Source: Azolla caroliniana (Eukaryota; Plantae; Polypodiophyta). Taken from it: a stretch of 64,000 nt of DNA. The DNA is taken from NCBI GenBank assembly GCA_043228905.1, contig JBHGNT010000018.1, positions 10,292,001 through 10,356,000 on the forward strand. The letters run 5' to 3'. A model generated the notes under the pieces. The model saw only the letters and a program-made list of their open reading frames with translations. It did no database searches and was not told the origin of the DNA. Positions 4,409-64,000 of this stretch are shown here, piece by piece (positions within the stretch are counted from its first letter, which is position 1; each line of letters starts with the position of its first letter). Both the position numbers and the translations under genes were made by a program.

Positions 4409-4668
4409 TGTAAAAATGTATAAATCATTTGCATTAATGTATGTTAATATACAGTTCCCCCTACATATGTCATGACATATTCAAATGTAGACCGGCGGGT
4501 ATCCGCATCAGCGGCATATCCAAATCCGTGATCCTTCAAGTTGGGGTTTACCTAAGCCGAATCAAAGGAACTTGCTCGAGGGGCCTTTCAGATACCGGAG
4601 TATCCACTTGTCGGCAACCCAATGCTCTTTTCCCGGATTGCTTATAAACCGGTTGACTACTCTGATTG

Positions 4669-12650: not shown

Positions 12651-13443
12651 TAATGTAGGAGTATAGGAATAGAATATATAACAAATATGTATAGACTTAA
12701 TGTATTGATTCCATTCAAATGAGACAAATTGTGCGATGATGCAACAAGTAGTTGCCAACTGTTAAGAATTAGGTAGGTAATTAAGAGTTAATTAGTACCT
12801 AATTATGTGATAAAGTTAAGTGCGGAAGATTATGTGATATGTGTGTGTATATATGTGAGAGGAAGAGAGAGAGAGAGAGAGAGAGATACACTTATGAATA
12901 ACACAAGATGGGGGATGAGTAAGTATATTAACTTAGCATTATCATCATCTATCATCAAATACAAAAATACCTTCAATGAGGTATATATAGGTTTCATGTG
13001 CAAGGGTGCACATGTGCTTGTTATCGGCCGGCAAGGAGTCCAAAATACGGAGTGAAGGAATTAATTAGATATGGTTGTAAATGAGCATAGTGTGGACGGA
13101 CGGACTGGAAACGGTATGCCGTTCCAGATCCGGACGGATCCCGAATAGGTGCGAGAGGCACCGTTTTGTACTACGGGCCGGAAACCTATTTAAAGGCCCG
13201 GACCCCATTGTAATGACAGCGGATAATTAATAGAGCTTATGTTGTTTATACTTCTGTCTTGATTTCCGTTCTATAATTACTGTTATATCTTACGCGTGTA
13301 ATTAACCGAAGCATTCTAATCGTGTAACCTATGTAAGTCGGTGTAATCGTTGAATCTTAATCCTATGCCGTAATCACCCTTTGGTGAAGTGTCTCCGTGA
13401 CACCTTGTGTTAGGCCTTGTCCGGCTAGAGAATAACACAGTTT

Positions 13444-13455
13444 TGGCGACCACGA
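13444..13455 (+). promoter_or_regulatory. Primer binding site, probably tRNA-Arg type
   Basis: TGGCGACCACGA lies 6 nt after the 5' LTR and is complementary to a tRNA 3' end ...GUGGUCGCCA (tRNA-Arg(UCG)-like, from memory). Conserved in the copy at 3853-3866. Confidence 0.7.
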
Positions 13456-13488
13456 TTCCTGCTTTCTCGCAGCGAACGACGGTAATGG

Positions 13489-19338: not shown

Positions 19339-19724
19339 GGTCACACACCGTCATTAAAAATTGAAAAAAAAAAATAAAAAATAAATAAAATAAAAAAACA
19401 TTAAAAATCGAGGTATGAACGGGTGTGAAAGCAAGGAGCGAAAAGGTACGTAGTGGGCATTTAAGAGACGCCAGGCTACTTAATACTAAATTGGTACACG
19501 ACGTGTGCATGCTCGAAAAAGGCGCCAAAACGCACAAAGAAGAAGCAGAACGCATGGAGACCTTTTCATTTCGCGAGCCAAGAAGCACAGAAGCACCAAG
19601 ACAGTGGAAGCTGAGCAAACGCGAACCTGCACGCAGAGAACCCCCACGTTCAGAACGCTCTCTCTCTCGTCCTCACTCTCATCACCACTCTAGCTTGCCA
19701 TCTTTCCTCGACCTCGAAGCAGAC

Positions 19725-22424: not shown

Positions 22425-23467
22425 AGGGGCCGAGAAGGGTTCGACGTACAAGGTACTGTCCCACGGGCGTGCCATGTGTTATCGGCCGGCAAGGAGTCCA
22501 AAATACGGAGTGAAGGAATTAATTAGATATGGTTGTAAATGAGCATAGTGTGGACGGACGGACTGGAAACGGTATGCCGTTCCAGATCCGGACGGATCCC
22601 GAATAGGTGCGAGAGGCACCGTTTTGTACTACGGGCCGGAAACCTATTTAAAGGCCCGGACCCCATTGTAATGACAGCGGATAATTAATAGAGCTTATGT
22701 TGTTTATACTTCTGTCTTGATTTCCGTTCTGTAATTACTGTTATATCTTACGCGTGTAATTAACCGAAGCATTCTAATCATGTAACCTATGTAAGTCGGT
22801 GTAATCGTTGAATCTTAATCCTATGCCGTAATCACCCTTTGGTGAAGTGTCTCCGTGACACCTTGTGTTAGGCCTTGTCCGGCTAGAGAATAACAGTGCT
22901 AGGAGAATATAGGTACAACGTGTAAGTCCTATATTAAATGAGCATGGAGTGATAGATCTACAATGTATCCCACTCAAGTACAAAATCCTATTTAAGGCTT
23001 TATGGTCAACACACTAACTAGATTCTATCTAGGTAACTACTAAGTTACATGTGTTGACTAACTAACTAAACTAAGTTGAGCTTGATCTCTTAACACCAAC
23101 GGTGTCTGTGTCTTTCTAATGAGAGATAATGCCTCTTCATGTGTTTCTTAGATGAGAGACCATACACATTATTATTTTTTATTTTATTATTTTCTATTTC
23201 CCCCCTAATGAAATTATAAAAGACATCATGTTCTCTTGCCTTCTACTTCGTTAATACTTTGACAAGGTTAGTATTTAAAAACAAAAGTGACTTAGATTAT
23301 AATTGTACAATTCACAAATTTTGAAGATGTACTTAAAAAGGCAAGAGTAGGACACATTGGTGTGTTCATCTCCTCTTCAAATTTATCATATAGAATGGAT
23401 TCTTAAGCACAAAATCCCAATTATTGCTTTGTGGCATGCATTCATTTAGTGAGCGAAATGTGTTTAT

Positions 23468-42300: not shown

Positions 42301-42699
42301 AATTGCCACCTTTGGTATCCGACGCCTAATCAGTCATGGTTCACGATCCCGCCTCGACTAAATCAACCAACCCGAAGATAACTGAAAAGAATAGCATGCG
42401 AAAGCTAAAAGACACAACCGGACAGAAGGTAAACGAAGGTTTAATGGAAACTCAGATAACACGCAAAGAACTTGGGAGAGACAAAGAGAGCAGGACACAA
42501 AAACTCAATTTCAATATAACACTTTGTACATACAAATGTGCTCAGAGAGCACTTTTATACAAGTCCTTAAAAGGACTTACATGTACTTTAATGCTCATAA
42601 CCATAGATTGACCCATGCGTGATATTCATAGTATTCAACATCCGTAATATTCGAGAATACGAAATGATCCCAAGAATATTACAGAACCATTCGTTTATT

Positions 42700-43318
42700 T
42701 ATTATTATAAATAAATAAAATTTTACATCTATTATATAAAAATATTATTAGTGTGAGGTTCCCTTTTTAATGTCAAGAGAGTAAAAAGTAGGGAATTAAT
42801 GAACCTTTTATTTATTATTTATTTTTATTGTTTTATTAAAAATAAAACAAATATTTTTAAGTTTTTCATCTATTATAAGAATATTATTAGTGTGAGGTCC
42901 CCTTTTTAATGTGAGATAAAAATACGAATTTTATGGGAACCTTTTATTTATTCTACTTATTTACATATTTTTATTTATTTTTTGCTTTATTAAGAAATAA
43001 AACAAATACATTTAAGTTTTATATCTATTCTAAAATGTGAGGTCTCCTTTTTAATGTGAGATAAAAATATGGAATTTATGGGTACCTTTTATTTATTTAC
43101 ATATTTTTATTTATTTTTTGTTTTATTAAAAAATAAAACAAATAATTTAAGTTTTATATCTATTCTAAAAATATTATTAGTGTGAGGCCCCCTTTTAATA
43201 TCAGATAAAAATATCAATTTTTGTGGGAGAATAAAAAGTGGGGAACTAATGAACCTTTTATTTATTATTTATTATTTATTAAAAATAAAATAGCTTTTAA
43301 GTTTTTCATCTATATTAT
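42700..43318. repeat. AT-rich tandem array, ~4 units of 135-155 bp, inserted in a copia LTR
   Basis: Units begin ATCTATT.. near 42727, 42868, 43023, 43158 and 43308 (the last only a partial start). The four full units contain TGTGAGG..CCTTTT(T)AAT and TTTATTAA.AAATAAAA. Confidence 0.8.
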
Positions 43319-43634
43319 CCATCTGATCCGGCTCTCAGCTTATTCAGCCGATCCGACCCACATAGAGCTTGTCCGCTCAACACTCCCCCTCACGCTCAAA
43401 TTGAGGTCGATCTTTCGTCGGTCCTTATCTCTGGCTCCTCCCGGCGTTGTCAGAACCAAGGATAAAAGATAGAGTGATGGAAGAAGGATAGAGAAGAATG
43501 TATGTATAAGATAGAGAAAGAAAGAGAATGGATACAAGATATGTAATGAGAGCTAAAGACTGGTGTTGATTCGAATTGATTTGAGAATACATGTATGCGC
43601 TTATTTATAAGTTCCTATAGAATAGCTTAGAGAT

Positions 43635-43707
43635 TTCTAGAATGTTCTAGAATGTTCTAGACCTAGAATGCTCTAGGACATTCTAGAACATTCTAGAATA
43701 ATCTAGA
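43635..43707. promoter_or_regulatory. Heat-shock element array in the LTR U3 (second copy at 48942-49014)
   Basis: TTCtaGAAtgTTCtaGAAtgTTC and TTCtaGAAcaTTCtaGAA are alternating nGAAn pentamers just upstream of TATAAATA on the element strand. Confidence 0.8.
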
Positions 43708-43840
43708 GTTTTTACAATAATCAATGTAATACAAGAAGTAGCTTTTATTGTTTCATATAACAATAAGCTATCTTAATGGTTGAGGTTTTCAAGTATGAAT
43801 TACAAGGTTCGAGGTTCAAGTCCGAGTGACGCCATAATGG

Positions 43841-46800
43841 TCATGTGTTCATGACACTATCCCTCCTTCGAGAACGCCGAGTGGAAGTCGGCGTTAACAT
43901 TGTTGGGCCGGGCTTGTTTGGATAGTGACGATGGAAGTCGTTGATCAGAGCTTCAGCATTACAAACATTATCGATGGGTTCCCAAGTGCGATCACTCGGA
44001 GGATAACCAAGCCAATCAACTAGATAATAAAGCTTATTGCGCACAATCTTAGAATCGAGAATAGCAGCTACCTCGTATTCGGGGCCGTCCACAAGTTGTA
44101 CAGAAGGCGGTGGTGGCACGACACGATTAGGAATTAAAGAGGTGTGGCAAGGTTCCAAAAGAGAGCTATGAAAGACAGGGTGAAGTCGCATATGTGCAGG
44201 AAGGTTAAGACGAAATGTTGCATCATTAATCTGCGCCATGATGACAAAAGGACCTAAGCGTTGATAGTCAAGCTTAGCACACGGTCGGGTAGTCTTGATG
44301 TGACGACGAAGCAACCATACACGGTCACCAACCTTAAACGGAGACTTAAGACGATGTCGATCGACATTGGTCTTATGGTGTGCTTGCGCTTTCTAAAGAT
44401 GTGACGATAACTCGAACTGGATTTGTTGTAGTCGGTGGAGGTGATGCGCCGCACTAGGGTTTCGTGACACCTCGGGAAGATCCAGTATACACCATCGAGG
44501 GTGGTTGCTGGTGTAGGCAAAGAAAGGTGTAACTTTGGTAGAAGAGTGGACCGTGTTGTTGTATGCAAACTCGGCAAGATGTAAACTTTTACTCCAATCA
44601 TCTTGTTGATAACTAATGAAACATCGAAGATATTGCTCGAGCGTTTGATTTGTGCGCTCTGTTTGTCCGTCAGTTTGTGGATGATAAGCCGAAGAGAGTT
44701 TGCAAGAGATTTTGAGGCCTGCCCATAGGTGCTTCCAAAAGTGTGAGATAAATTGAGGACCTCGATCGCTAATAATATCATTCGGGAGACCATGATGGCG
44801 AAACACTTCACGCATAATGAGATCTGCAGTTTCTTCACTATTGATGGTCTTTACACATGGTACAAAATGTGCCATCTTGGTGAACCGATCCACTACTGTT
44901 AAAATAGTATCAAAGCCTTTGGAAGGTGGCAGATCCGTAATGAAATCCATAGAAATAGACTGCCATGGCTTGTTGGGAGGGGGTAATGGTTGTAGTAAGC
45001 CATAAGGGTGATGCCGGGGTATTTTGGCGCGACAACAGGTGTCACAAGTGCGAACATAATCTTCGACAAATTTTTGCAAGTGAGGCCACCAAAACAAACG
45101 TTTCACAAGCTCAATGGTCTTGGAAATACCAAATGTCCAGCCATGGGGGCATCATGACAATGTTCCAACACTTGAAGTCGGGGTGATCCGTCGGGGACGT
45201 AAAGGAGATTCTTGTAGAAGAGTAAACCATCTTGCCACTTGAAGTCCTGATAATGTTGAGATGACCCTGGCAATGTGGAGCAAGATGGACGACTTGAACC
45301 ACAGTGGGCTAAGACATCCTCAGCAAAATCATCCGAATGAAGTTGTTGCCGAATAGTGTCAAGAAGGGTAGAATCAAGTGGTGTGGCATAAATTGTTGTT
45401 ACCTGTAGCTTTGATGGCTCGAGGAGAGTTTGCTTTTGATTGTCAAAGGCCGGATCTCCAGGTCGAAGTGCTAGATACGAACGCCGAGACAGAGCATCTG
45501 CTTTCCCTTGTTTTCTGGGGCGAAAAATGATCTTGAAATCGAAACGCGTTAGAAATTGGGCCCACCGAGCTTGTCATTTATTTAATACTCGAGCTGTTTG
45601 AAAATATGTGAGATTTTTGTGATCACTATAAATGATAATCTGATGAGGTGATCCTTCTAGAAAATGACGCCATTGCTCGAATGAGTCGACCACAGCTAGT
45701 AACTCCTTGTCATGCACCTCATAGTTTATCTCCGAAACAGTAAACTTTCTCGAGTGAAACGCGACTGGATGTATCTGCCCGTCCTCGCCTGGTTGCGATA
45801 GGATACTCCCCAATGCAAAGTCTGATGCATCCGCCTCAATAGTAAATGGCTTTTCAGGATCAATATGTGCTAGGATGGGTGCTGATGTGAATGCCCCTTT
45901 CAGCTGCGTAAAAGCCTTGTCCGCTTCGATACTCCAAAAAAATGCTTGATTTTTCTTGGTGAGTCGAGTAAGGGGCAACACAATGCTTGAATAATTATGT
46001 ATGAATTTGCGATAGAAGTTCGCAAATCCGAGGAAACACTGGACATCCCGAACTGAGCATGGGGGTTTCCATTCCAATATTGTTTGGACTTTTGCCGGGT
46101 CCATGAAAACACCCTGGGATGAAATAGTGTATCCCAAAAATTCGACTTGTTTGCAATCAAAACTACATTTCTCAAGTTTGGCGTAAAGACCATACTTCCT
46201 TAGGCGTTCAAGTACTTGCCGCACATGTATATCATGCTCCCCCTGTGTTTTAGAGTAAATCAATAGATCATCTAGGTAGATGATTAGAAAAATATCCAAG
46301 AAATCCCGAAAGATGTCATTTGCCATATGTTGGAATACGGCAGGTGCATTTGTGAGCCCAAAAGGCATGACTGTATACTCGAAATGACCATACCGAGTAC
46401 GAAATGCTGTTTTCCACTCATCTCCCGGCCGAATTCGAACAAGATTATATGCACCCCTTAGATCAATTTTGGTAAAATGCTTTGCCCCACCAATGTGTTC
46501 TAAGAGATTGGAGATTAAAGGTAAAGCATACCTATTCCTTATGGTGACTTTATTTAAGCCTCGATAGTCCACGACCAAACGAAGGGAGCCATCCTTTTTC
46601 TTCACAAAAAAGATAGGAGCACCAACTGGAGACTTTGAATGTCGAATAAACCCATGTGCAAGATTTTCCTCGATGTATTCTCGAAGAACCTCAAGCTCAG
46701 TGGGTGATAAATTGTAAATCGGACCCCACGGAGGCTCTTTTCTTGGTTGGAGATCAATAGGACAGTCGTACGACCGATGCTTTGGAAGAACACTAGCTTT

Positions 46801-47505
46801 GACTTTGTCGAAAACATCAGCATAGTCTTGATATTTTTTGGGAATTTGGATGTTTGAATTCCCTTGAGTGACACTAGAAGGTGTCACTAATACTGCAAAT
46901 AAGAAAAGGTCCTCCTTGCCTCCCACTTGGTGCAATTGTTGCAATGTGATGGCTGAAATTTTATGAGAAGGATATGGTGCATCGGTAGAACTATATACTT
47001 TGGGAGGATAATCCCGAGTTCGATCCTTGACAATGATATTTTCTGCTAAAGGGCACCTAATTTCTCGCTTCCTCCAATCGATTCTAGGGTTATGTAGCTC
47101 GAACCATGGCAAACCGAGGACAATTGGATGCTCAGGACTACAGATTATGTTAAAGGAAACTACACATCCTAAATCACCCAAGAGTATGTGTATTGGCTCA
47201 GACTCTTCAAATATCTTCCCGGAAGCTATGGGGCGTCCATCAATCACTACTACAACAACTGGACAAGGAAGTGTATGCAAGGATATTTGGTGTTTTTGGG
47301 CAAAATCTCTATCCATGAAACAAGAATTGGCTCCAGTATCTAAGAGGGCTTGGACTTGAAGTTGACAACTGGGTGTCCTAACTTGTACTAGGGCTGAGAA
47401 GACTCTACTAACATGCTTGGAAGAAATGGAACACACACTAGGTTGTACATATCTAGGGTTGTCCAACCAAATGGCTCCTATTTTGGCCGAACTTATTCGT
47501 TTGAC
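43841..47505 (-). pseudogene. pol of element A (PR-RT-RH-IN-chromodomain) with nonsense and frameshift lesions
   Basis: ORFs 45574-47466, 44393-45106 and 43841-44314; stops TGA at 45574 and TAG at 44393; one frame change between 45574 and 45106. Confidence 0.9.
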
Positions 47506-48656
47506 TCCTCTTCTAATTGGCTTAGGACTTCAAATTTATTGGACAAGAGTGGATTATTCATAATATTAGATTCACTAACTACTTCTAAAATGTTGGACTC
47601 ATTTTTATTGTCATAGTGAATTTGATTTATCTAACGTCTCGGCCTACAGGAGCAATGAATGGCTATATGTCTTGGACCTCCACAATATAAGCACAGATGG
47701 TTTGCTCGACGACGTTGCTTCTCTTCGTCTGACAACGGTCCTCGTCGTTGAGTCATATCGATCTCCATGGGTGTAGGACTATCCATTGGGACTGGACTAC
47801 GTGTTTGCCTTGGAGTTGGAGCAGGGCTATACATTTGCCTTGGGGATGATTGCGCCGTTACTGATGCATAAGTTGGTGTGAATCTAGATCTTGTTATTTG
47901 TTGTTGTCGCTCACATCGACGCTCAAAAAGGCGATTATCACACCGTATTGCTCGACTAATAGCTTCTGTAAGTGACCTTGGATCCTCGGGGGAGGTAAGA
48001 AGTAAGTCTTTGACATCACTACGAAGGCCTGAACGGAATTGCTCCATTAGGGCTTGTTCATCCCAAGGAATATCGCTTGCGATGAGACGGAAATTGGCAG
48101 CATATGTTGAAGCTAGTTGATCACCTTGACGAAGTGTACGAATCTTGTTGATAGCTGTTCTCGCCCCATCAGTATCTCCGAAACAAGCCTTAAATTCCTT
48201 GATAAATTCCTCAAAATTATTCAGTAGAGGAGAATTGGTCTCTAGCAATGGAGCAAACCACGACAACGCTATGCCAATCAATAAAGTGCCCACTAGCCCG
48301 ACTCGTGATGCATCTGTTGGATAACGTGCAGGATGCATTTGAATCACCAACCGTACTTGATTCAAAAAACCTCGGAAATGCGCCCTCGACCCATCAAATT
48401 TAGCTGGGAGGCTAATTTTGGGCTCCTTGATAAGTCCCTGACCTTCAACCCTTTGTTGTTGTAACACGACGATTGTCGACTCTAACTGTTGCACTCGTCG
48501 CGTGAACTCCTCTTGTTGTTGTTGCTTCTCTATAGTAACCTTTTGTAGATCCCCAAGTAGACGTTGATTCTCTACTTCAAGAGATGCGAACTTGGATTTA
48601 AGGTTCTCCATTTCTGCAACAAGGGTGAGATATTCTTCTGAGTTAATGGCAACCAT
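47493..48656 (-). pseudogene. gag of element A (premature TAG at 47631-47633)
   Basis: ATG at 48656 (MVAINSEEY); CLYCGGPRHIAIHC; natural stop TAA at 47493-47495, matching gag 61035-62162. Confidence 0.85.
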
Positions 48657-48681
48657 GGTTTCAGGATGGTTACAAAGGAGG

Positions 48682-48684
<3 letters not shown>

Positions 48685-48740
<56 letters not shown>
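48685..48740. repeat. (GA)n microsatellite in the element A leader
   Basis: Directly visible. Confidence 0.95.
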
Positions 48741-48741
<1 letters not shown>

Positions 48742-48745
<4 letters not shown>

Positions 48746-48752
48746 GAATCAA
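48742..48752 (-). promoter_or_regulatory. Self-priming PBS of element A
   Basis: TTGATTCGAAT, 2 nt after the 5' LTR, is the exact complement of ATTCGAATCAA (48883-48873), 33 nt downstream of the TATA box. There is no TGG tRNA-type PBS. Confidence 0.85.
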
Positions 48753-51700
48753 ACTGTCAGAACCAAGGATAAAAGATAGAGTGATGGAAGAAGGATAGAG
48801 AAGAATGTATGTATAAGATAGAGAAAGAAAGAGAATGGATACAAGATATGTAATGAGAGCTAAAGACTGGTGTTGATTCGAATTGATTTGAGAATACATG
48901 TATGCGCTTATTTATAAGTTCCTATAGAATAGCTTAGAGATTTCTAGAATGTTCTAGAATGTTCTAGACCTAGAATGCTCTAGGACATTCTAGAACATTC
49001 TAGAATAATCTAGAGTTTTTACAATAATCAATGTAATACAAGAAGTAGCTTTTATTGTTTCATATAACAATAAGCTATCTTAATGGTTGAGGTTTTCAAG
49101 TATGAATTACAAGGTTCGAGGTTCAAATCCGAGTGACGCCATAATGGTCATGTGTTCATGACAGGTGTCTTCACACCTTGCTCGTTCTCCTCGACCTGTC
49201 CAGTCACACGGACCTCAACCTTCTCAGTCGGCTTGTCTACTCATTAGACCCTTCTCAGCTCCCTTGCTATCGCGGCATCGACGCTTCTCGACCCGTTGGC
49301 TCCTCCGTGTGGGTGTCGACTTTAGTTGCCCTCTCGTCCACTCGGCCTTTATGTGATTCGGCTCATCTGAATCGAATTGCTTGATCGGATCAGGTGTCTC
49401 CGATTTGTTCTCGCTCTTGTCCAAATTAGTTATCTCCAATCCGTCATCTGTTTGCAGGCCCTTGACCGCATTTGACCATGTCTTGGTTCTGGCCTTTTTC
49501 TTTTGGTTGGCTCTGTCCTTCTTGACTCTGTCACCTTTGCCGTCTGTTCCGGCTTTTCTGGATGTTTCAACTTATTTAGTTGATTCAACATCTTGTTCGG
49601 TTTCCTCCTGTTTCTCTCCCCCTTGTTCTCTACTTGTATTCCCCCCTCAACTGTGGCGTGTCGAGATGTTGCAACCCAAGCATCTCCGAAAAGTGTTGCG
49701 ACTTGTCTGATCTGAGCGTCTTGGTGAAGATGTCGGCAACCTGTAAATCGGTTCGAACATATCGGAGTTCGACTTCACCGCTCAAGACCCGCTCACGCAC
49801 AAAATGGTAATGCACTTCTATGTGCTTTGTGCGAGCATGGAGCACGGGGTTCTTGGCTAGGTGCATGCTAATAATATGGTTGCAATAGATCAAAATCAGA
49901 GTGGGAACTTTCACCCATAAATCCTGCAACAGTCGTCGGAGCCATATAGCTTCACAAGTTGAGATGGTGGCGCCTCGATACTCAGCTTCGGTGCTTGACA
50001 AGGCCACTGTCGGCTGCATCTTACAACTCCAGGCTACAACCACGCTTCCAAGAGAAAACATGAATCCTAATGTCGATCGGCGATCCGATGCATCTCCGGC
50101 TCAAGTTGCCATCCGTATAGTCGACTAACTATTCGGCTATAATGTGTCAGTACAGTAGTCCCTGATCCTTTGTGCCACTCACATATCTCATTAGTCGATG
50201 CACGCAATGAAGATGCTCCATTGTTGGTTGCTGCATGAATTGACCAATCACCCCGACCGGATAAATAAGGTTGGGTTAGGTGATAGTTAAATATATAAGG
50301 CTTTCGACAATTTGTCGGAACCGTTTCGCATCACATGTTTCTCCCGAATCGGGACATAGCTTTAGGTTTCTATCGAGGGGAGTAGAGATGGATCAACAAT
50401 CTGTCATACCGAACTTGTACAACATATTAAATACATAATGTCGTTGAGACAATAATATGTCATCGGGGGTGTGGATCACTTCGATCCCAAGAAAGTAGTG
50501 AAGGTCCCCCAGGTCCTTCATCTTGAATGCGTCTAACAACTGGGACTTTACTCAGTCGATTTCAGCAAGATCAGGTCCGGTGAAGACCAAGTCGTCCACG
50601 TAAAGCAAAATGCAAATCGGACCCTTCGGACCTTTTCGGATAAACAACAATCAGTCGGATTTAGAGGTCGCAAACCCCATCTTATGTGATTGGTGCGTGA
50701 TCTTCAATGTCGTAAAGCGACTTCTTCAATCGACATACTGCAGACTTGTTCACCTCTAACTAAAAACGGGTGTCTGGACCATGTATACTTATTCTTCAAG
50801 ATCATTCTTCATGTCCATCTAGTGGAGATGCCACTCTCTTTGCCGCGGCAACTGCTAGCACCACACAAACCATTGTCATCTTCGCCACTAGTGCGAAAGT
50901 CTAGTCGTAGTCGATTCTGTGGGTTTGTGCATATCCCTTGGCCACCAATTGGGTCTTGTACCGGTTGACCGAACCATCGGCGTTGTATTTCACCTTATAC
51001 ACCCACTTACATATCTGATTGGTTTGCAATTCTAGGGAGGGTCAACGAAATCCCATGGTGCCCACATTTCTTCCTCCATGGCCAAATGTCATCTGGCATC
51101 CTGTGATGCCTCCACATAGCTCCCCGGCTCACTGACTTCAGCCACTTTCGTCATGTATGCATAAGGGTGCACCATGTACTCATTATATCCATACCAGATC
51201 ACAGGCTTCTTGTGGCGAGCCAATCGGCGGAGCTTCTCATTCACCAATTTGAGGGCCCTCTTGGTCGTATTCGACCTCAACTCTTGAGGTCCTCTTTCGC
51301 TCAGAGTGTTGTCGGATTCTCCTGGATCCGACTCTGCTTTATCCGTGCCATACTTCAACATCTTCATTTTCCCTTTTTCTTTGCACATGAACCATCTCCT
51401 CGGTTCCTTGCGTGGGGAGTGCACGACCGAGTCGTCACTTCTCGTCGGCTCGTCATTTTGTTGGTCTTCCTGACTCAGCTCTTCATTTGGACCACTTAGT
51501 TGGAATGAATTCGGACTCTCTTCCAGAGCACCAAAATCTTCTTCTTCTTCATGGATCATGTCGGTCTCACTGGCCTCATCCTCAGAAATCGGAAGGTCAA
51601 AGTTGTCAGTGTTAAGATTCTATTACTAATCAATAGACCAATTTAATAAAGTTAAAAAAAAGGAAAATAGATTGGATAGAATAACCCGTTCCACCCGACC

Positions 51701-52938: not shown

Positions 52939-55900
52939 TATTAGAGACATAGACTAATGTAAGCATTAGATAAGGATAGAAAATAGATGAATAGATAGAT
53001 CTAGAAAGGAGAGAGAGAAAGAAGGGTGCCGATCCACCCGACCACCCTTGAGCGAAGGGATCGAGACGGACTCGAGCCTCGATCGGCGTCCCATACCACC
53101 GCCGTGGCGTCGAGTCATACCTGGTGCTGGCGCGCTCGCTACAAGAGTTGACCCACCACAAGACAGAGTCTCAATGTAGTCAACAAGATAATCAAATGAG
53201 GGTAGCTAGGCCTCTATTTATAGCGATACCCAAGGCCCCCAACCATGTTCACACTTGGCCTAATGGGTTGTCTCAATCCCGAGGATTTAAAAATAATCCT
53301 CCCCTTCTTTACACTCTCGTTTAACCCTCACACTTATCCACATGTATAGAATACTACAATAAATTCTCACCACGGGATATTATATGGTCATGCCCATAAC
53401 ATACTCCCCCTCTTTAAAACATTGCACTCTTGCAATGGAAAGTTAGGGAAGTTAAGTTCTGAGAGTATTTTCGCGTTCCCATGTGGCATCTTTTATTGAT
53501 TTATCCATCCATTTTATTTTAAATTCTCGGATTTCTTTAGTACGTAATTTTTTTGTTTTAACATCGAGAATTCTTTCTGGTACATGTGGTTTAGAAGATA
53601 ATTCTTCAGAAGTAACCAGAGTTTCAGTTGTAACTGTATTGTCGCCAGAACCCAGACGTTCTTTTAGACGACTCACATGAAATACTGGATGAATTCCAAC
53701 ACCATCGGGAAGAGCGAGACGATGGGCTGATGACCCGATGCGTTTGAGGACTGTAAAAGGTCCACAAAACTGTGGGGCTAACTTAGCGCACTTACCCGTA
53801 GACAATGTCTTAATTGTGAGGTACACGTAAAAATACCTTCTGTCCAGGGTTGAATACATGAGGTTGCCTATGATGATCGGCATAAAAACGGGCTCTATCT
53901 TGAGCTGTTTTTATATTATCTCGTGCAATATGCAACATATCTTGCATATCCCGAAGAAAGTTCTGCGTACTTTGCAACTCATCATGATGAATATTAACAT
54001 GAATCGGGGCTCATGGCTGAAAACCATACATCAACATAAAAGGACTATATCCCGTCGATGTATGCTTAGAGTTGTTATAAGCAAACTCCAAAATTGGGAG
54101 GTAACGTTCCCATTTTTTTGGTTTTCCACCAAAATATGCTCGAAGGATATCCTCAATACTTTGATTTACTCGTTCTGTTTGTCCATCGGATTGAGGATGA
54201 TCCGTGGAGCTCATGCTCAACGTAGTTTCTAACTTCTTGAAGACTTGTGTCTAGAAGTCACTAGTAAATTTTGGATCTCGATCACTCACGATATCCATCG
54301 GTAACCCATAAAAACGAAATAACTCGTCAACGAATTGGTAAGCCAATTCAGGATCTGTTATCGTGGTTTTAGTAGCAATAAATCTGGCCATTTTAGTTAG
54401 TCGATCAACCACAACCCAGATGGCATCATGGCCTTTTTGGGTGCGTGAAAGGCTAACAATAAAATCCATGGATATACTTTCCCACTTATTATTGGGAATG
54501 TCCAAGGGATGTAAAAGTCTTGCGGCTTTAAGTCGCTCGGCTTTGTTAACCTGACATTGGTGACATTTAGTCACATAGGTATGTATGTCAGGATGCATCT
54601 TAGGCCAATAAAATTGAGTGGAGATGAGAACGAGTGTACAATGTATTCCAGGGTGCCCTGTTGAGGGTGCATCATGGCATTAAAAAAGAATCCTCTTTTT
54701 GACCTCGGGTAAATTTGGAACACAAACCTTCCCATTACAATAGAGCAGACCATTAGCAATGTGGAAGTATTCCTTCGAGGATGTGGTGGTGTCTGTTCCA
54801 GACTTAACTCTTGTCTAGTATTTTGCAAAATAACTGTCATCAGGATACTTCCCTCGAAGGTGATCATAAAGATCTGAGGATATTTCAGTGAAGCTAAGCA
54901 TGTTAACTTCACGGATGCGACTTAGTGCATCAGCGACAGTGTTCATGGAACCTTTCCGATATCGTATGGAAAAATCAAAGTCCTGGATGAGATCAGCCCA
55001 TCGTGCCTTACGACCTTTCAAGTCTTGTTGGTCACAAAAATATTTCAAGGACTCGTGGTCCGTAGTTACGAGAAAGCGATTTCCATAAAGATAATGGCGC
55101 CATGTTTTGAGTGCATGTATAACTGCAAATAATTCCTTTTCTTGAACAGTATACCGACATTGAGCAGAATCAAGTTTCTTACTCTCGAATGCTATTGGTT
55201 TACCATCTTGATATAAGACAACACCTATAGCATAATCGCTTGCATTGGTTTCAACCTCAAAAGGTTTTGAAGGATCGGGTAAAAGAAGTGAAGGAGCCTT
55301 GCAAACCAGGTCCTTGAGTTCCTTAAAGGCGAGGTCTAGAGTAGCATTCCACACAATAGGTTTTGTAGACTTACGCGTTTGACCTTTTAGAAGATCAGTA
55401 AACGGCGTCGTCAATTGGGAGTAATTACGAAAGGATTTTTGCAAAAACCCGACAAAACCAAGGAATGATCAAACTTCTCGAATGTTCCGAAGAGTGGGCC
55501 AAAACTTGATTTTCTCGATGCGAGAAGGATCAATTTCAACTCCTCGTTCGGTTATGAGATGTCCAAGATAAGTAATTGATTTCTTGAAGAACTCACATTT
55601 TGAGATCTTCCCATAAAATTGTTTGTCACGCAATGTTTGTAAAACAAAGCGGACATGTTTAGCATATTCTTGTAATGTACGGCTATAAACTAAAATATTA
55701 TCCAAGGAAATAACGACAAATTTTCCAAGTTGTTCTCGGAAAATGTCATTCATTTCTTGTTGAAATGTAGCCGGAGCATTGGTCAAACCAAAAGGCATAA
55801 CCAGAAACTCATAATGGCCATAGCGCGTACAAAATTCCGTTTTAGGAACATCGTCCTCACTTATACGAATTTGATGGTAGCCAGTACGGAGATCAAGTTT

Positions 55901-58900
55901 CGTAAAATACCGAGCTCCTTGGAGACGGTCAATTAGATCGTCAGCCTGGGGCAATGGATACGAATTCTTGATCGTCACTTTATTCAAGCGTCGGTAATTA
56001 ATACACATACGCCATGTGCCCTCTTTCTTTTTAACCAAGAGAATTGGTGCACCCCATGGAGATTTACTATAACCTATATAACCCATTCGTAAATAGTCCT
56101 TGAGTTGCTTAGATACCTCATCCTCTTCGGATCGACTTAAGCGATAAGGAGGTATACTTATTGGTGCAATGCCAGGTACAATATCTATACGATGGTCTAT
56201 ATTACATTTAGGAGGTAAACCTCATGGTAGTTCACTCGGAAAAACATCACAAAAATCATTTAAGATTTCATCAAGTTGTTGTTGTTCAAAATATGTTAAT
56301 TGAACTGAGACATTATCGATATTGTAAACGTGAATGTTCTAATCAAGTACACAATAAAATAGAGTAGAACAAGACAACTCGGATATTGATGGACACGAGG
56401 AAACAATCGAGAGGGATTGTTTTTTTACATATTGAATAAAATGAGTACAATCGTTCAATACAAATGTAATTGAATGATGAACCCAATCAATAGATAAAGA
56501 AGAGTTTTTATTATAAAACCAGGGATAACCTAGTATTACATCGGTGGTACAAAGATTCATTACATGGAAGTCTACTTCCTCTATATAAGTATCAATAGAA
56601 ATTCCTAATGAATGAATCGCCCCATTGATGTATTGTACTCTTCCATTAGCCAAGTGCACCGTGTAGGTGTGATCACTTACGGTGGGTTGGATTCCCCATA
56701 TCTAAACCAAACGATCATTCACAAAGTTGTGTGAGCTTCTCGAATCAAATAAAAATGGTATGGGAGATCCATTGATATACCCGTTTGCACGTAGTAAATC
56801 ATTGGGACCCAATACATAGTGAGGGAAAGAACATTAACAATTACTTAAATGATGTGTATAGACCTGAAGGACATTAGGAATCTGACCTTTATGGTTTGCA
56901 ACTTTAGCTTTGTTGTCGTCTCTTTCCGTTGGAGCTTTCGACATTGATCTTTTGTATGACCCTTCTTTTTGCCGAAAACGCAAAAAGGATGTTGTTGCTT
57001 ACAATCGTGATCCATGAATTCGTTGGGTGTTTTGCATTTCCCAACGAATTGCGACTGCTTAGTCCCGGGCGCTTCGTTGGGTTTGTTGTGATCCTTCTTC
57101 GAAGTGCGGTTATAGCGAAGAACTATTTCAACGGCCTCTTCGAAGGATTTTGGATCCTTATTGTGCACTATCCAGTGATAGTCCGAATTGGGGATGCCAT
57201 TTACAAAACAAGCTATCAACCAGTTGTCCCCTTCTAGACCCAACTTTTGGATTTGGGTTCTAGCATGGTGAACATAGTCTTCTAGCGAGGAAAACTTCCT
57301 GCTAGAGAGGTTCATTAAAGCTTCTGCTGCCTCGGTTCGAGAGGGAGGTTGTAGAAATTGGCCCTTGAAAACTGTGACAAAATTTGTCCAGGTATCGGGC
57401 AATTTCCCCAAAGTACGGAGCCCACACCACCAGATGGCGGCCTAACCCCCTAGTTCTCGGCTGACATATGCAATCTTCGTACTATATGGCGTGTGATAGA
57501 GCTCAAAATGAGACTCCCATCGGCCTAGCCACGTGCAGATTGCTTCTTCGGTTCTTTCCTTTTTTTCTCCCGTAAATGGCTTAACGACAAATGATGGTTC
57601 ACCCTATCGCTCATCAGGTCTATTAGTCTCACGTTGTAGACTAATGACATGTGCCTCAAGAGCACATTGAGATTTGCGAAGTTCGGTCATCTGTTGAGCA
57701 GTGAAACTAAGGTATTGGGTTATTTGCAAAAAATACATCTCAATGGACATTTTTCCAAGAGGATTCCCTAGAGTTCCTTCCGCTTCATCGGAGGACATCG
57801 GGTCGTTATTTTGAGCATTAAATGATTGTTTCTGGAAAAGAAATAGGATAAGGTCAGAGAGATAGTCATAACATCATGTCGTGATGTAAACCTATCATGG
57901 GCGAACATTATCGATATCATTATCTCACGTCAATACCCCTCTAGACGTATGAGATGAGGTTCAAGATCAGGTTACTATGGTAACACAAAGGTGTTTTAAA
58001 AACCATGGGGGTGACAATTTAATGTCTTTCCCTGATCTCTATATCGATTTTTTCATGACGACTCCCTGAGGCTCAACCATGTATGTTCGCGTCATGAATA
58101 GTTTATACACGAAAAAAAATGTTAACAATAAACTATGTTTCTGTGCCCACATATGTGGTTTCGGTTCTTTAAGTCCTATTATGAGGACCCCGAAGTGCAC
58201 TTAGACCTCAAGTCTAAACATGTGTTATAGTCATATGTATCAACGATGTTGTATGGTCTTGGTCATATTTGAACTCAAAACCTCGAGAACAAATGCATTA
58301 AACATTTGAGCCAACCAAGTAAGTTGCTCTTCTTGAATGTTTAATGTTTCATGCGTATAAGAGATATGCGAGGCATTTGCCCATATATGTTTTTTTAAAA
58401 GAAACATATATGTCAAGAGTCCTTATTTCGCCCTCATTTACTACAACTATGTTGGTACATTACCTAACCTCAAGTCTCGTAATTACGATGGCATACACCA
58501 AAGTGCAACCTAATGGTCAAGCCAAATGAGCCCTCTTTTCGTAGTTGGCCCACGTGGCCCATCACATGGTCACGTCATTACGAATGCCTCTCGTAAGAAT
58601 GATCTCATAGTGGCATCGTATCCTTGTAATGAGGGAGGGATGTTGGATACGTGTGTCATAAGAGCGACCTCACATGAAGTGGGTCAAACCCCACGTACTC
58701 AACATCATTATGGCTATTGGCGTTTCTTTACGTAACGAAATATCGAAGTCACCAACGGGGATTTCAACACTAAAAAAAATTGTTGAAAAAAGGGATGGTG
58801 ACAACGCGATTCTCACAAAAATGTGAGGACGGCCACCAAGATCCTTTCCCCGAAAAGGAAAACATTCGATTTAAAATCACGTAATAAGTTATATACACAT

Positions 58901-59962
58901 ATATACGATCAACTACGTATACACATGACCACATATGCCTATATTAAAGAAATCTTTATATTTAATAGCCAAAAATGACCTAATCGAGATATGTAATCGA
59001 GGCATATACCTTTACGCACACGAGACATCCAAAAATAAGGGTTAATCGTAATACGCAATTGAGGTATTGACCTCTTACGCATATGAGACCAAACACATAT
59101 CATTTACAACGAATCAAGGTATTGACCTCATACGCAAACGTAACATATGTTCGTGAACGTAATACGTAATTGAGGTATTAACCTCGTACACATACGACAC
59201 TCATCACATATTATTTATATGTCAAACGAGGTATTGACCTCGTGCACATATGTAAGCGTTTTAGATAACCAATTAAATACCACTACAACATCATTTAATG
59301 AATGAAAATAATCTACATATTAACCATACACATGATTAGATAGGAGAAGAAAAAATAGACAAAAAAACAAGAAAGATTACCGAAGTTCCTTTGTTGATCC
59401 TTGTTTGCATGAAGGCTGACCAAACGTAGATCGATCACCATCAATCAAGAGCACAAAACACAACAAAAGAAACATTAGAAAATGAGCTCTGATACCAACT
59501 ATTAGAGACATGGACTAATGTAAGCATTAGATAAAGATAGAAAATAGATGAATAGATAGATCTAGAAAGGAGAGAGAGAAAGAAGGGTGCCGATCCACCT
59601 GACCACCCCCGAGCGAAGGGATCGAGACGGACTCGAGCCTCGATCAGCATCCCATACCACCGCCGTGGCGTCGAGTCGTACCTGGTGCTGGCGCGCTCGC
59701 TACAAGAGTTGACCCACCACAAGACAAAGTCTCAACGTAGTCAACAAGATAATCAAATGAGGGTAGCTAGGCCTCTATTTATAGTGATACCCAAGGCCCC
59801 CGACCATGTTCACACTTGGCCTAATGGGTTGTCTCAATCCCGAGGATTTAAAAGTAATCCTCCCCTTCTTTACACTCTCGTTTAACCCTCACACTTATCC
59901 ACGTGTATAGAATACTACGGTAAATTCTCACCACGGGATATTATATGGTCATGCCCGTAACA
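52939..59962 (-). mobile_element. Full-length degenerate chromovirus C (Reina/Tekay-type) with a long 5' leader
   Basis: 463-bp LTRs at 59500-59962 and 52939-53401 (~17 mismatches). TSD CACGA/CCCGA; PBS TGGTATCAGAGC at 59486-59497; PPT AAAGAGGGGGAGTA. Fragmented gag, PR, RT, RH, IN and a type II chromodomain. Confidence 0.92.
58999..59241. repeat. Five regularly spaced copies of a GAGGTATTGACCTC hairpin motif
   Basis: Copies start near 58999, 59061, 59116, 59172 and 59228. Confidence 0.75.
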
Positions 59963-60101
59963 CCCGAGTCCAAAAGTCACTAGTAAACTTGTAATCTCGA
60001 TCACTAACAATATCCATCGATAATCCATAAAAACGAAATAACTCATCAACAAATTGATAAGTTAATTGTTGAGGGGTTACTATGGTTTTGGTAGGAATAA
60101 A

Positions 60102-60400
60102 TGTTAGAGTTATGATCTAACGTAAGCATATGATAAGGATAAAATATAGATAAACATAAGAACGGAGAGAGAGAAAGAAGGGTGTTGATCCACCCGAACA
60201 CCCCCGAGCGGAGGGATCGAGACGGACTCGAGCCTCGATCGGCATCCCATACCACCGCCGTGGCGTCAAGTCGTACCTGGTGGTGGCGCGCTCGCTACAA
60301 GAGTTGACCCACCACAACGTTAGAGTCTCGACTTAGTCAAAAGATGATGAAATGAGGGTAGCTAGGCCTCATATTTATAGCGATACCCAAGGCCCCCAGG
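60102..60400 (-). repeat. Partial LTR of the chromovirus C family, interrupted by Tcn1-like element B
   Basis: Homologous to 52939-53240; canonical CA end. Confidence 0.85.
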
Positions 60401-61034
60401 TGTCATGAAGACATACATCTTGGCTTATCATGACATTCATCTTGGCGAACCAGGAATCGAACCCATAACCTCTTGGTTTACATATTGTACTTTAACCATT
60501 GTAATAACATATGTGAGATGTAATCATAATAATTATATGTTTAGTTATTACGAGATATTTAGAACATTCTAGATTATTCTAGAATGTTCTTGAATATTTC
60601 ATGATTATATTTATTATTATTATTATTCATAAATATCTAAAATATTCTAGAACATTCTAGAATACTCCATAAGGGCCTATAAATAAGAGTCCATACACTC
60701 ATCACAACTCATTCGGTTCAACACCAGTCTTTAGCCCTTAGCCTACTCCTTGTAATCTTCTTTCTCATAATATAATCTCATTCCCATTTCTTATCTCTCA
60801 CTTATACTTTTCTCTCTCTCGCACTCTCTCCCTTTTTCACTCTCTTTTGCTATCACTATCGCTATCTCTACCGCTCTCGCCATCTCTATCGTTATCGTTA
60901 TCTCTATCGCCATCGCTCTCTCTCTGCTTCCTACTCAAGAGTCACGACAGTTTGAACCGAATATTTCTTTTCCCTTTCTCCAATAACCCTAGCAAGCTTT
61001 CTTCTTTATCCTTCTTTCTTTTTCCCCCGCGGTT

Positions 61035-62162
61035 ATGGAGTCGGTCAGCAAGCAAGAGTATATGTGTGTCCTTTCGGAGCTCGATATGCTCACCACTAAG
61101 TTTGTGGCATTAGAGCAAGAAAATCAAAGGCTACTCGGGGATCTTCAACAAGTCAGTACTGAGAAAGCTCATCAATATGAGGAGTTATCACAACGGGTTC
61201 ATCAACTTGAGGCTACTATATTAACATTACGAGAACAAGCGGCGGGGGTTCAAAACTCCCCAAGGGAACCAAAGATTAGCCTCCCTGCCAAGTTTGATGG
61301 TACCAGATCTCTCTTTCGAGGTTTCCTGAATCAAGTTCGTTTGGTGATTCAGTTACATCCCAATCGGTATCCAACTGATGCTGCCCGTGTGGGATTAATA
61401 GGAACCTTGCTAAGCGGTACAGCGTTAGCATGGTTTGCACCACTTCTTGAGAAGAAATCACCATTACTGGAGGATTTCGAGGCATTCGTTAAGGAGTTTC
61501 AAGCTAGTTTTGGAGATACGGATAGCACTAGGACTGCAATAAACAAGATTCGAAGACTCCGACAAGGAGATCGTCCCGCTTCAGCTTATGCCGCAGATTT
61601 CCGTCTCTTGGCATGCGACATCCCTTGGGATGAGGCAGCCTTAATGGATCAATTCCGTCAGGGTTTGCGTAACGATGTCAAAGATCTTCTTCTTACTTTC
61701 CATGAAGATCCAAAGTCTCTTACTGAAGCTATTAGCCGAGCTGTGCGATGTGATAATCGCCTATTTGAGCGACGTTCTGAACGTCAACAAATGTTACGCC
61801 GCCAACCGGAACAGACATACGCTTCTATAGTCGCCACACCGCCACAAGGTTCTAGACCCGTTACGAGGGATGGTCCCACTCCGATGGAAATAGAGTCGAC
61901 ACAACGTCGAGGGCCCTTATCAAATGCTGAGAAACAACGACGTCGGGCGCATCGCCTATGCCTCTACTGTGGTGGTCCAGGACATATAGCTGTGAATTGT
62001 CCACATAAACCCAGGCGTCAAGTTTACCAAGTAAGTGCACATGACAACCCTACATCAAGTTCTACTATCACTTCTAATAACTTAAGTACTAAGCCTAATA
62101 GCCCATGCCATGAGAATAGATTTGATGTCTTGAGCCAATTAGAGGATGTGTTAAACGAATAA
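61035..62162 (+). CDS. Gag, 375 aa (N-terminal coiled coil, capsid-like domain, CCHC knuckle)
   Basis: [37 protein letters not shown]. Confidence 0.92.
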
Positions 62163-64000
62163 GTCCGGCCAAAATAGGAGCCATTTTGTTGGACCATCCT
62201 AGTTATGTAGAGTCAGTACCTAGTTGTGGTTCCATTTCATCAAATCAAGTTAGTAGAGTTTTTTCTGCACAAGTCGAGCTTAGCACATCTACAGGTCATC
62301 GCGCCCTAGCCTCTGCCCTCCTAGATTCCGGAGCCAATTCTTGTTTCATGGATCGCGAGTTTGCATTGACTCAAAACATCATCTTGAAAAAACTCCCAAA
62401 CCCAGTAGCTGTAGGAGTCATCGATGGTCGCCCTATAGCATCAGGAGATATAGTCGAAGAGTCTGAACCAATTCGTGTAGTCCTAGGTAATTTGGCTAGT
62501 GTCATCTCATTTAACATCATTAGTAGTCCGGAGCACTCTCTAGTTCTTGGTCTTCCTTGGTTTGAGTTACATAACCCAACCATTGATTGGAGAAAAAGAA
62601 CTATTGAAGAGGTCACCGTACAATCCAAGTCTCTTGAAGCTCCAACTAAAGATCTAGGATCCCCCACAATTTCAACAATCTCTATACATCAATTACGAGA
62701 GGATGGAAGAAAGGAAGACATGATGGTATTTGCGGTTTTAGCAACTCCCTCATCTAGCTCACAAGAATTGGGGGTCCAACTACCAAAGAAGTACATAGAA
62801 TTCTCCGATGTGTTCGATAAGGTGAAGGCTAATAGACTACCAGAGCATCGACCATATGATTGCCCAATTGATTTGCAGCCAGGAAAAGAGCCACCATGGG
62901 GACCAATTTATAATCTTTCGCCCACGGAGTTAGAGGTTCTTCGAGAATATATCAATGAGAACTTGGCAAATGGTTTTATCCAACATTCAAAATCTCCTGC
63001 TGGTGCACCCATCTTTTTCGTTAAGAAGAAAGATGGTACGCTTCGTATGGTCGTGGATTATCGAGGCTTGAATAAAGTGACCGTTAGAAACCGATATGCT
63101 CTCCCATTGATCTCAAGCCTTCTAGAACGCCTCAGTGAAGCAAAGTATTTCACGAAGTTAGATCTTCGAGGTGCCTACAACCTTGTTCGAATTCGTCCTG
63201 GGGATGAATGGAAGACGGCGTTCCGCACTCGCTATGGTCATTTTGAGTACACAGTGATGCCTTTTGGCCTCACGAATGCACCAGCAGTCTTCCAACATAT
63301 GGCGAATGATATTTTTCGAGACTTCCTCGATATCTTCATCATTGTTTACCTGGATGATATCTTGATCTACTCAAAAACTCAAGAAGAACATGATATACAT
63401 GTTCGCCAAGTTTTGCAACGGCTACGAGAGTATGGTCTCTATGCAAAATTGGAGAAGTGTAGTTTCGACCAATGTCAAGTGGAGTTTTTGGGGTACATAG
63501 TCTCTTCAAATGGCATCTCTATGGATCCATCAAAGGTTCAAACAATTTTGGATTGGCAAACACCACAGTCCGTGCGAGATGTGCAATGTTTTTTGGGGTT
63601 CGCAAACTTTTATCGCAAGTTCATCAAAGATTATTCAAAAATTGTGTTGCCCCTCACTCAACTGACGCACAAGAATCGACCATTTGTATGGAGTATAGAT
63701 GCGAACTCTGCATTTGAGGGTTTAAAGCAAGCATTTACATCCGCACCAATCTTAATCCATGTTGATCCAATGAGGCGCTTTATACTTGAAGCTGATGCAT
63801 CGGATTTCGCACTCGGAAGTGTACTATCCCAAATTGGTGATGATGGTGAACTGCACCCGGTGGCTTTTCACTCACGAAAATTTGAAGCCGCAGAAATCAA
63901 CTATGAGATTCACGACAAAGAGCTTCTTGCCATTGTGGATTCTTTTCAACAATGGCGTCATTTTCTGGAGGGTTCTTCTCAGCAGATTATTGTCTACAAT
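62150..64000 (+). CDS. Pol (protease, RT, RNase H; partial) in the -1 frame relative to gag
   Basis: The frame from 62150 reads [47 protein letters not shown]. The ORF track reports no stop, consistent with the frame running off the window end. Confidence 0.88.

What the first reader, a model, noticed from the sequence alone, without database searches (positions are those of the whole stretch)
60711..60962. Self-priming (tRNA-independent) PBS supported by compensatory changes between two Tcn1-like families
Seen: neither element has a TGG-type tRNA PBS. In element B, ATTCGGTTCAA (60711-60721) starts 33 nt after the first T of TATAAATA, and TTGAACCGAAT (60952-60962), 2 nt after the LTR, is its perfect complement. 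In element A (minus), ATTCGAATCAA (48883-48873) also starts 33 nt after TATA and pairs with TTGATTCGAAT (48752-48742). The two families differ at two adjacent positions (GT vs AA), and both changes are compensated in the PBS. Established: S. pombe Tf1 primes reverse transcription with the first 11 nt of its own mRNA. Inference: these plant chromoviruses use the same mechanism. Self-priming may already have been proposed for this clade; the covariation is the direct evidence here.
Basis: partly seen in the sequence, partly recalled or inferred. Interest (0 to 1): 0.8.

Follow-up and report, generated by a model that had tools for sequence, protein, structure and literature searches.

The report
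Self-priming Tcn1 retrotransposons in a fern
Two jumping genes in a fern genome have no host-tRNA primer site and instead carry a site that pairs with the predicted first 11-12 bases of their own RNA, with matched changes on both sides across many relatives, so they likely start DNA copying from their own RNA, a route already predicted in print for this group.

Summary
B: 60711-60721 pairs perfectly with 60952-60962. A's duplex is 12 bp, not 11 (48884-48873 with 48752-48741). Both are chromoviruses in a fern; B's RT is about 80% identical by hand count to the published Selaginella SM-Tcn1.

Of 81 copies examined, 40 could be scored. 32 have 10-12 consecutive Watson-Crick pairs, with 14 different primers. 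At the free positions 165 of 176 pair (shuffled partners: mean 87, max 122). At least 38 of 41 primer changes on a Gag tree coincide with a PBS change. The duplex ends 43-45 nt after TATA in 36 of 40.

Tf1-type self-priming is the best reading (about 0.88), but start site and cleavage are inferred, and the three-stem Tf1 structure was not recovered.

It is not new: self-priming is predicted for 83% of 1500 plant Tcn1 elements (PMC6317226), Tcn1 in ferns is stated in print (PMC13477047), and this scan noted it in peat moss. Added here: tree-level covariation, and SM-Tcn1, published as lacking self-priming evidence, has the same duplex.

The parts
60401..60949 (+). Element B 5' LTR (549 bp, TGTCA...CGACA), inserted in a solo LTR of the element C family
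   Evidence: end read from termini and homology, 3' LTR outside window
60678..60685 (+). B TATA box (TATAAATA)
   Evidence: function inferred
60711..60721 (+). B predicted self-primer, 11 nt, begins at a C|A step 33 nt after TATA
60722..60729 (+). B conserved CACCAGTC after the predicted cleavage point; AC and GTC pair with GT and GAC at the LTR end in the folds
60946..60951 (+). B LTR end GACA plus 2-nt spacer GT
60952..60962 (+). B primer-binding site, exact complement of 60711-60721
61035..62162 (+). B gag (Retrotrans_gag, Ty3_capsid, CCHC knuckle)
62126..64000 (+). B pol, other frame overlapping gag; RT and RNase H; runs off the window
48755..49163 (-). Element A 5' LTR (409 bp, one difference from the 3' LTR)
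48909..48916 (-). A TATA box (TATAAATA)
   Evidence: function inferred
48873..48884 (-). A predicted self-primer, 12 nt (AATTCGAATCAA), begins at a C|A step 32 nt after TATA
48741..48752 (-). A primer-binding site, 12 nt, 2 nt after the LTR
47631..48656 (-). A gag; ends at a stop earlier than its closest relative P0157
43841..47529 (-). A pol in several ORF pieces: protease, RT, RNase H, integrase, SH3, chromodomain
43925..44077 (-). A chromodomain with Y, W, Y at the usual aromatic-cage positions (positions recalled)
43857..43869 (-). A polypurine tract
43448..43856 (-). A 3' LTR, with the second copy of the primer sequence at 43577-43566; flanks ACACC/ACGCC (5-bp target duplication with one mismatch)

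Best explanation
Elements A and B are Tcn1-clade chromovirus LTR retrotransposons of a fern whose primer-binding site is the exact complement of an 11-12 base stretch of their own LTR, and they likely prime reverse transcription with that stretch, as Tf1 of fission yeast does. Shown: the duplex, its position (2 nt after the LTR; 3' end 43-45 nt after TATA), its covariation across relatives, and the lack of a TGG site. Inferred: transcription starts at the A of the C|A step 32-33 nt after TATA; the RNA 5' end folds onto the PBS; a short second stem (AC/GT, GTC/GAC, longer in some families) holds the conserved CAA|C junction; the element's RNase H cuts there (after nt 11 in B, nt 12 in A) to give the 3'-OH; RT copies the GT spacer, U5 and R. 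Also inferred: the primer is later copied into the PBS of the plus strand, which would carry a primer mutation straight into the PBS and explain why changes come in matched pairs with few G-U pairs.
For: Exact duplexes, chance 1e-4 or less; both are the stem at the 5' end of the MFE and centroid folds (z -1.84 and -2.61). Of 81 copies (79 loci plus A and B), 40 had both anchors: 27 have 12, 3 have 11, 2 have 10 consecutive Watson-Crick pairs. In 22 distinct primer/PBS pairs, 165 of 176 cells at positions 4-11 are Watson-Crick, 3 are G-U; shuffled partners mean 86.8, sd 7.7, max 122 in 20,000; 14 different primers pair over 10 or more bases. On a Gag tree of the 40, parsimony gives 41 primer changes, 44 PBS changes, 47 pair-state changes, so at least 38 coincide. 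TATA to primer end is 43-45 nt in 36 of 40; pairing stops after position 12 (position 13: 2 of 22 paired); by eye 39 of 40 duplexes begin at Y|A. One guessed-RNA contig of a relative ends in a poly(A) tail just past 60778, which puts the primer upstream of a poly(A) site (run X19; weak). Clade: RT tree places A and B among fungal and vertebrate relatives, apart from two angiosperm pol proteins and from tRNA-primed element C (FastTree support 0.874); B RT versus SM-Tcn1 184 of 230 residues identical by hand count. [quoted passage not shown]
Against: No start site, cleavage product or primer-linked cDNA was observed. 8 of 40 copies have a mismatch or G-U within the first 10 positions (L018, L023, L024, L035, L056, L059, L074, L075); 41 of 81 could not be scored (25 no PBS anchor, 14 PBS only, 2 primer cut by the contig end). 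The anchors fix positions 1-3 (CAA/TTG), so the scored set is selected for this layout. Most loci are collapsed short-read contigs, possibly mosaics and probably of related hosts. The second stem is no better than shuffles in A (135 of 300) and B (164 of 300) and beats them clearly in only 4 of 25 representatives; the third duplex of the Tf1 structure was not found in A or B (200 of 200, 185 of 200). L065 and L067 have a 10-bp duplex ending 48-50 nt after TATA. No host tRNA set was available to exclude a matching fragment.
Confidence: 0.88

Rival explanations
1. The PBS is primed by a host tRNA fragment ending in the T-loop; GGTTCAA and TTCGAATC in the B and A primers look like the tRNA T-loop motif (motif recalled).
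For: Motif resemblance in A, B and the commonest primer. The U3 starts of these families carry an antisense tRNA-like A/B-box remnant (15 of 19 distinct LTR starts), so tRNA sequence has entered these LTRs.
Against: Primers such as those of L065, L069, L076, L078 and L079 lack the motif yet pair with their own PBS; PBS changes track the element's own LTR on the tree, which a host RNA would not cause.
Confidence: 0.03
2. The duplex is a real RNA stem closing R-U5 into a loop, kept for packaging, translation control or dimerisation, and priming uses something else.
For: Covariation proves pairing, not priming; the three-duplex Tf1 structure was not recovered.
Against: The 3' arm sits exactly where a PBS must (2 nt after the LTR) and no other primer site is present; the 5' arm ends at a fixed distance from TATA; only 3 G-U among 176 cells, fewer than a merely structural stem usually tolerates (inference).
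Confidence: 0.05
3. The primer is the same sequence but comes in trans, from the 5' end or the 3' R copy of another element RNA or from an element-derived small RNA, rather than by fold-back.
For: The sequence is present in both LTRs (A: 43577-43566); sequence alone cannot tell cis from trans.
Against: Conserved CACCAGT and GACAGT flanks that can extend the stem in cis; Tf1 precedent is cis (PMC7175516 passage).
Confidence: 0.04

Closest known systems
Plant chromovirus|Tcn1 clade (REXdb; Neumann et al. 2019, PMC6317226; passages and additional file 5 read), with SM-Tcn1 of Selaginella moellendorffii (PMC2864245; passages, section 7 and supplement S3 read)
   Same: Gag and pol in overlapping frames, chromodomain, 5-bp target duplication, 5.7 kb (A), no tRNA PBS. 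SM-Tcn1 read by eye has a 12-nt stretch at nt 395-406 followed by CACCAGTC, LTR end at 496, GT, and the exact complement at 499-510: the same layout. B RT 184 of 230 identical to SM-Tcn1 by hand count.
   Different: Host is a fern; REXdb's Tcn1 came from moss and club-moss and a 2010 PCR survey missed it in 26 ferns and horsetails, though PMC13477047 (one passage read) states that ferns contain Tcn1. Neumann's call rested on a 10-bp blastn match, with no covariation or TATA spacing in the passages read. The 2010 paper reported no evidence of self-priming for SM-Tcn1.
Tf1/Tf2 of Schizosaccharomyces pombe and the Tf1/sushi group (passages of PMC7175516, PMC4600332, PMC11042837, bioRxiv 2022.12.06.519325; the original Levin papers were not seen)
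   Same: PBS complementary to a 5' segment of the element's own RNA; primer about 11 nt; chromovirus pol.
   Different: Primer is 12 nt in most of these plant families; different sequence with an invariant CAA|C junction; the three-duplex 'pretzel' is only partly seen (short second stem, third not found in A or B); gag and pol in two frames rather than one ORF; no experiment.
TAR-lineage Ty1/copia elements of plants (Houba, Osr-1; PMC6317226)
   Same: Self-priming predicted (89% of 203 elements).
   Different: Copia superfamily; unrelated domain order.

Membership tests
chromovirus|Tcn1 | Ty3/gypsy order PR-RT-RH-INT with C-terminal chromodomain | tested here: met
   Element A; B runs off the window after RNase H
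chromovirus|Tcn1 | Chromodomain with aromatic cage | tested here: met
   A: EYEV...VDWLGY; cage positions recalled
chromovirus|Tcn1 | Clusters with Tcn1 references in RT-RH-INT trees | tested here: inconclusive
   No labelled Tcn1 sequence could be put in the tree. RT tree (158 rows chosen by similarity to B) places A and B among fungal and vertebrate relatives; hand count 184 of 230 identity to SM-Tcn1, above the named database hits (42-64% over other spans)
chromovirus|Tcn1 | Gag and pol in different, overlapping frames | tested here: met
   B: gag to 62162, pol frame open from 62126
chromovirus|Tcn1 | 5-bp target duplication; length 5.5-9.4 kb | tested here: met
   A: 5716 bp, ACACC/ACGCC with one mismatch; not testable for B
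chromovirus|Tcn1 | At least 10 bp starting 0-5 nt after the 5' LTR complementary to the LTR (Neumann's criterion) | tested here: met
   11 bp in B, 12 bp in A, 2 nt after the LTR
Tf1-type self-priming | Primer is the 5' end of the transcript | tested here: inconclusive
   TATA spacing and Y|A start fit; only contigs were available, which cannot show a start
Tf1-type self-priming | Three-duplex structure around the PBS | tested here: inconclusive
   Central duplex met; second stem short in A and B, strong in 4 of 25 representatives; third duplex not found in A or B
Tf1-type self-priming | RNase H cleavage at the primer's 3' end and primer-linked strong-stop DNA | not testable with these tools
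   needs particles or in vitro RT
tRNA-primed plant chromoviruses (Reina, Tekay, Galadriel, CRM) | TGG-type PBS complementary to a tRNA 3' end | tested here: not met
   A and B read GT-TTG after the LTR; element C of the window has TGGTATCAGAGC

The most novel reading that the evidence does not exclude
Plant Tcn1 elements run a gated form of self-priming: in several lineages the end of U3 carries an anti-primer that folds back on the primer in any RNA that includes U3, masking the 3' R copy and read-through transcripts so that only a correctly started 5' end can reach the PBS. Such a hairpin (9-13 bp, some with G-U pairs that work only on the sense RNA) beats shuffles of U3 (at most 2 of 300) in 7 of 24 representatives and follows four different primer types (L008, L012, L031; L042; L076, L078; L079). 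It is absent from A and B. I did not search the literature for it specifically.
Probability: 0.2. Interest if true: 0.55.

Novelty: new member of a known kind. Interest (0 to 1): 0.3.

Why it matters
tRNA-free priming has been shown by experiment mainly in yeast Tf1; for plants it is a prediction from a short sequence match. The tree-level covariation, the fixed TATA spacing and the invariant CAA|C junction turn that prediction into exact start and cut sites that can be tested, and they correct the published reading of SM-Tcn1. A shared priming layout also fits the proposed fungal origin of plant Tcn1. It confirms a known idea; it does not open a new one.

Tried and rejected
No whole genome is held, so copies in the host genome could not be counted. 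No RNA holder listed. Guessed-RNA contigs: one of run X20 begins at 60724, near the predicted cut, but it is a single contig of depth 2.6 and contigs cannot show starts; X22 laid nothing; X18 is probably DNA. DNA contigs of four runs show a high-copy family; none of the 40 variable sites displayed lies in the primer or PBS, but 136 more were not displayed, so nothing is drawn from it. Viral contigs: no relatives in two scans. Cluster look-ups gave no organism names. ARAGORN: no tRNA gene in the window; Rfam: none at gathering score; at E up to 10 only sub-threshold matches, mostly miRNA-like to the TTCTAGAA palindromes, no tRNA. Third duplex: tested in 25 representatives, no consistent position. 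The 25 copies without a PBS anchor were inspected: most are cut or lack an LTR upstream; 5 (L005, L043, L054, L071, L073) show a TTG-type site after a changed LTR end; none has TGGTATCA in the up to 350 nt upstream of the gag match. A fern range extension as the novelty was dropped. Searches: self-priming+Tcn1+retrotransposon (5 papers), Tcn1+fern+chromovirus (4), self-priming/Tf1/pretzel (24), Tf1/self-primer/RNase H/plus-strand (11), Tcn1+Azolla (0), Tcn1+Ceratopteris+LTR (0), self-priming+LTR retrotransposon+compensatory+primer binding site (1, not opened), self-priming+Houba (1), Tcn1+ferns from 2013 (2). None of the passages read reports covariation for plant Tcn1; subscription papers (Butler 2001, Lin and Levin 1997, Novikova 2008) are outside the library, and REXdb additional files 1 and 3 were too large to read and may list these primers.

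Full report
Observation. The coordinates are right. In B, ATTCGGTTCAA (60711-60721) is the exact complement of 60952-60962, which follows the LTR end GACA and a GT spacer. In A (minus strand) the same holds, and the duplex is one pair longer than reported: 48884-48873 with 48752-48741. From base composition the expected number of such matches anywhere in the LTR is 1.4e-4 for B and 8e-5 for A. The duplex is the 5' stem of the predicted fold of both leader RNAs. Three other LTR elements in the window carry TGG-type sites after their LTR, so the contrast is local.

Anatomy. A spans 43448-49163 with 409-bp LTRs differing at one base, flanks ACACC/ACGCC, a polypurine tract, and gag, protease, RT, RNase H, integrase, SH3 and chromodomain; its coding region is in several pieces. 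B begins at 60401 inside a solo LTR of another family; gag and pol lie in overlapping frames and pol runs off the window.

Host. The long-chain alcohol oxidase ORF at 23468-25171 has ferns as best named hits (Adiantum 56%, Ceratopteris 53%) and groups with them at SH-aLRT 98 in a tree of 23 rows chosen from the 120 listed. One gene only; the genus was not determined.

Clade. An RT tree of 158 rows places A and B among fungal and vertebrate relatives, apart from two angiosperm pol proteins and from tRNA-primed element C (support 0.874; rows were chosen by similarity to B, so the sampling is biased). No labelled Tcn1 could be included. The SM-Tcn1 record in the supplement of PMC2864245 was read by eye: 184 of 230 RT residues match B's (hand count), and its LTR has a 12-nt stretch at 395-406 followed by CACCAGTC, 33 nt after a TATA-like run, whose exact complement lies at 499-510, two bases after the LTR end. 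That paper reported no evidence of self-priming for SM-Tcn1.

Covariation. A Gag alignment fetched 78 loci from metagenome contigs (best 80 kept of 325 confirmed stretches) and one from genome contigs. With A and B, 81 copies were examined. The PBS was anchored on the LTR end plus TTG, the primer on CAA plus the conserved bases after it; these three pairs were left out of the tests. 40 copies had both anchors, 14 the PBS only, 2 a primer cut by the contig end, 25 no PBS anchor (the 25 were inspected). Of the 40, 27 have 12 consecutive Watson-Crick pairs, 3 have 11, 2 have 10, and 8 have a mismatch or G-U earlier. Among 22 distinct primer/PBS pairs, 165 of 176 cells at positions 4-11 are Watson-Crick, 3 G-U, 8 mismatched; dealing the PBSs out anew gives mean 86.8, maximum 122 in 20,000. 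Every one of positions 4-11 shows two to four Watson-Crick pair types. Because kin share sequence, changes were counted on a Gag tree: 41 in the primer, 44 in the PBS, 47 in the pair state, so at least 38 coincide. Pairing ends sharply after position 12, the primer's 3' end lies 43-45 nt after TATA in 36 of 40, and by eye 39 of 40 duplexes start at pyrimidine|A, as plant start sites tend to (recalled). Caveat: most loci are collapsed short-read contigs, possibly mosaics, and probably of related hosts.

Flanking structure. The bases after the primer (C[AG]CCAGT) and before the PBS (GACAGT) are conserved and can extend the stem. By duplex energy this second stem beats shuffles at 7 of 300 or fewer in L069, L074, L075 and L076, but not in A or B; the third duplex described for Tf1 (bioRxiv 2022.12.06.519325 passage) was not found in A or B. 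The full Tf1 structure is therefore not established here.

RNA. Only contigs were available. One guessed-RNA contig of a relative matches 60701-60778 and ends in a poly(A) tail, which places the primer upstream of a poly(A) site; it says nothing on the start.

Mechanism. Most likely as in Tf1, where the first 11 bases pair with the PBS and RNase H cuts between bases 11 and 12 (PMC7175516 passage): start at the C|A step, fold-back, cut at CAA|C, extension through GT, U5 and R. Tf1 cDNA often carries a PBS copy at its 3' end (PMC11042837 passage); the same copying would move a primer mutation into the PBS and explain matched changes with few G-U pairs. All of these steps are inferred. Rivals (tRNA T-loop fragment, structural stem only, priming in trans) total about 0.12.

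What is known. PMC6317226 predicts self-priming for most Tcn1 elements (passages; 83% of 1500, additional file 5) by a 10-bp match criterion that A and B meet. A 2010 PCR survey missed Tcn1 in ferns, but PMC13477047 states that ferns contain it (one passage). Earlier notes of this scan describe the same layout in peat moss. In the nine searches listed under Tried and rejected I read no covariation analysis for plant Tcn1; older subscription papers and REXdb's large supplements were not visible.

Verdict. Real, correctly interpreted, a new member of a known kind. Interest 0.3. The extras worth a look are the SM-Tcn1 correction, the U3 anti-primer hairpin in some lineages (7 of 24 representatives, not A or B) and the antisense tRNA-like remnant at the U3 start.

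Noticed in passing
window 60443-60500 (B) and 49083-49140 (A); U3 starts of L001, L008, L015, L017-L019, L024, L025, L028, L029, L038, L053, L057: The U3 start carries an antisense, degenerate tRNA-like stretch (TGG[TA], 30-50 nt, GGTTCRA; in A and B ending in CCA). 15 of 19 distinct LTR starts match a pattern written after viewing them, shuffles at most 1; absent in L022, L039, L065, L067; no Rfam tRNA match. Could be a Pol III promoter remnant or a tRNA-binding site; one inherited feature, not 15 events.
   Followed up: partly
L008, L012, L031, L042, L076, L078, L079, the 30 nt upstream of the primer: U3 end complementary to the element's own primer (9-13 bp hairpin, follows four primer types); absent in A and B.
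   Followed up: partly
window 60577-60662, 48942-49005, 43635-43698: Arrays of GAAnnTTCnnGAA in U3 upstream of TATA (14 of the window's 18 such sites lie in these LTRs); they match the heat-shock element consensus (recalled), so the elements may be heat-inducible.
   Followed up: partly
SM-Tcn1 record, PMC2864245 supplement S3, nt 395-406 and 499-510: The published Selaginella reference has a perfect 12-bp primer/PBS duplex although the paper found no evidence of self-priming (read by eye).
   Followed up: yes
window 13019-22895: Non-chromovirus gypsy element D (LTRs 99.5% alike, 1950-aa ORF plus a 768-aa ORF without Pfam match) has a stretch ending in CCA 2 nt before its 3' LTR and no purine tract there; earlier notes on this genome describe such elements.
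   Followed up: no
window 62147-62162 (B) and 47628-47645 (A): GTTAAAC (B) and GTCAAAC (A) just before the end of gag; candidate -1 frameshift site (motif type recalled).
   Followed up: no
window 52939-59962: Element C: chromovirus on the minus strand with TGGTATCAGAGC PBS and LTRs 96% alike that end in AATA rather than CA; a solo LTR of its family at about 60101-60398 holds element B.
   Followed up: no
window 4668-8051: Element E: 371-bp LTRs 97% alike only 3 kb apart, TGGTATCAGA site, no Pfam match in its 334-aa ORF; probably non-autonomous.
   Followed up: no
window 23468-25171 (minus): Long-chain alcohol oxidase ORF of 567 aa (GMC oxidoreductase), shorter than most homologues, closest to fern proteins.
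   Followed up: partly
window 42694-43313: AT-rich tandem repeat with a period of about 145 bp next to the end of element A.
   Followed up: no
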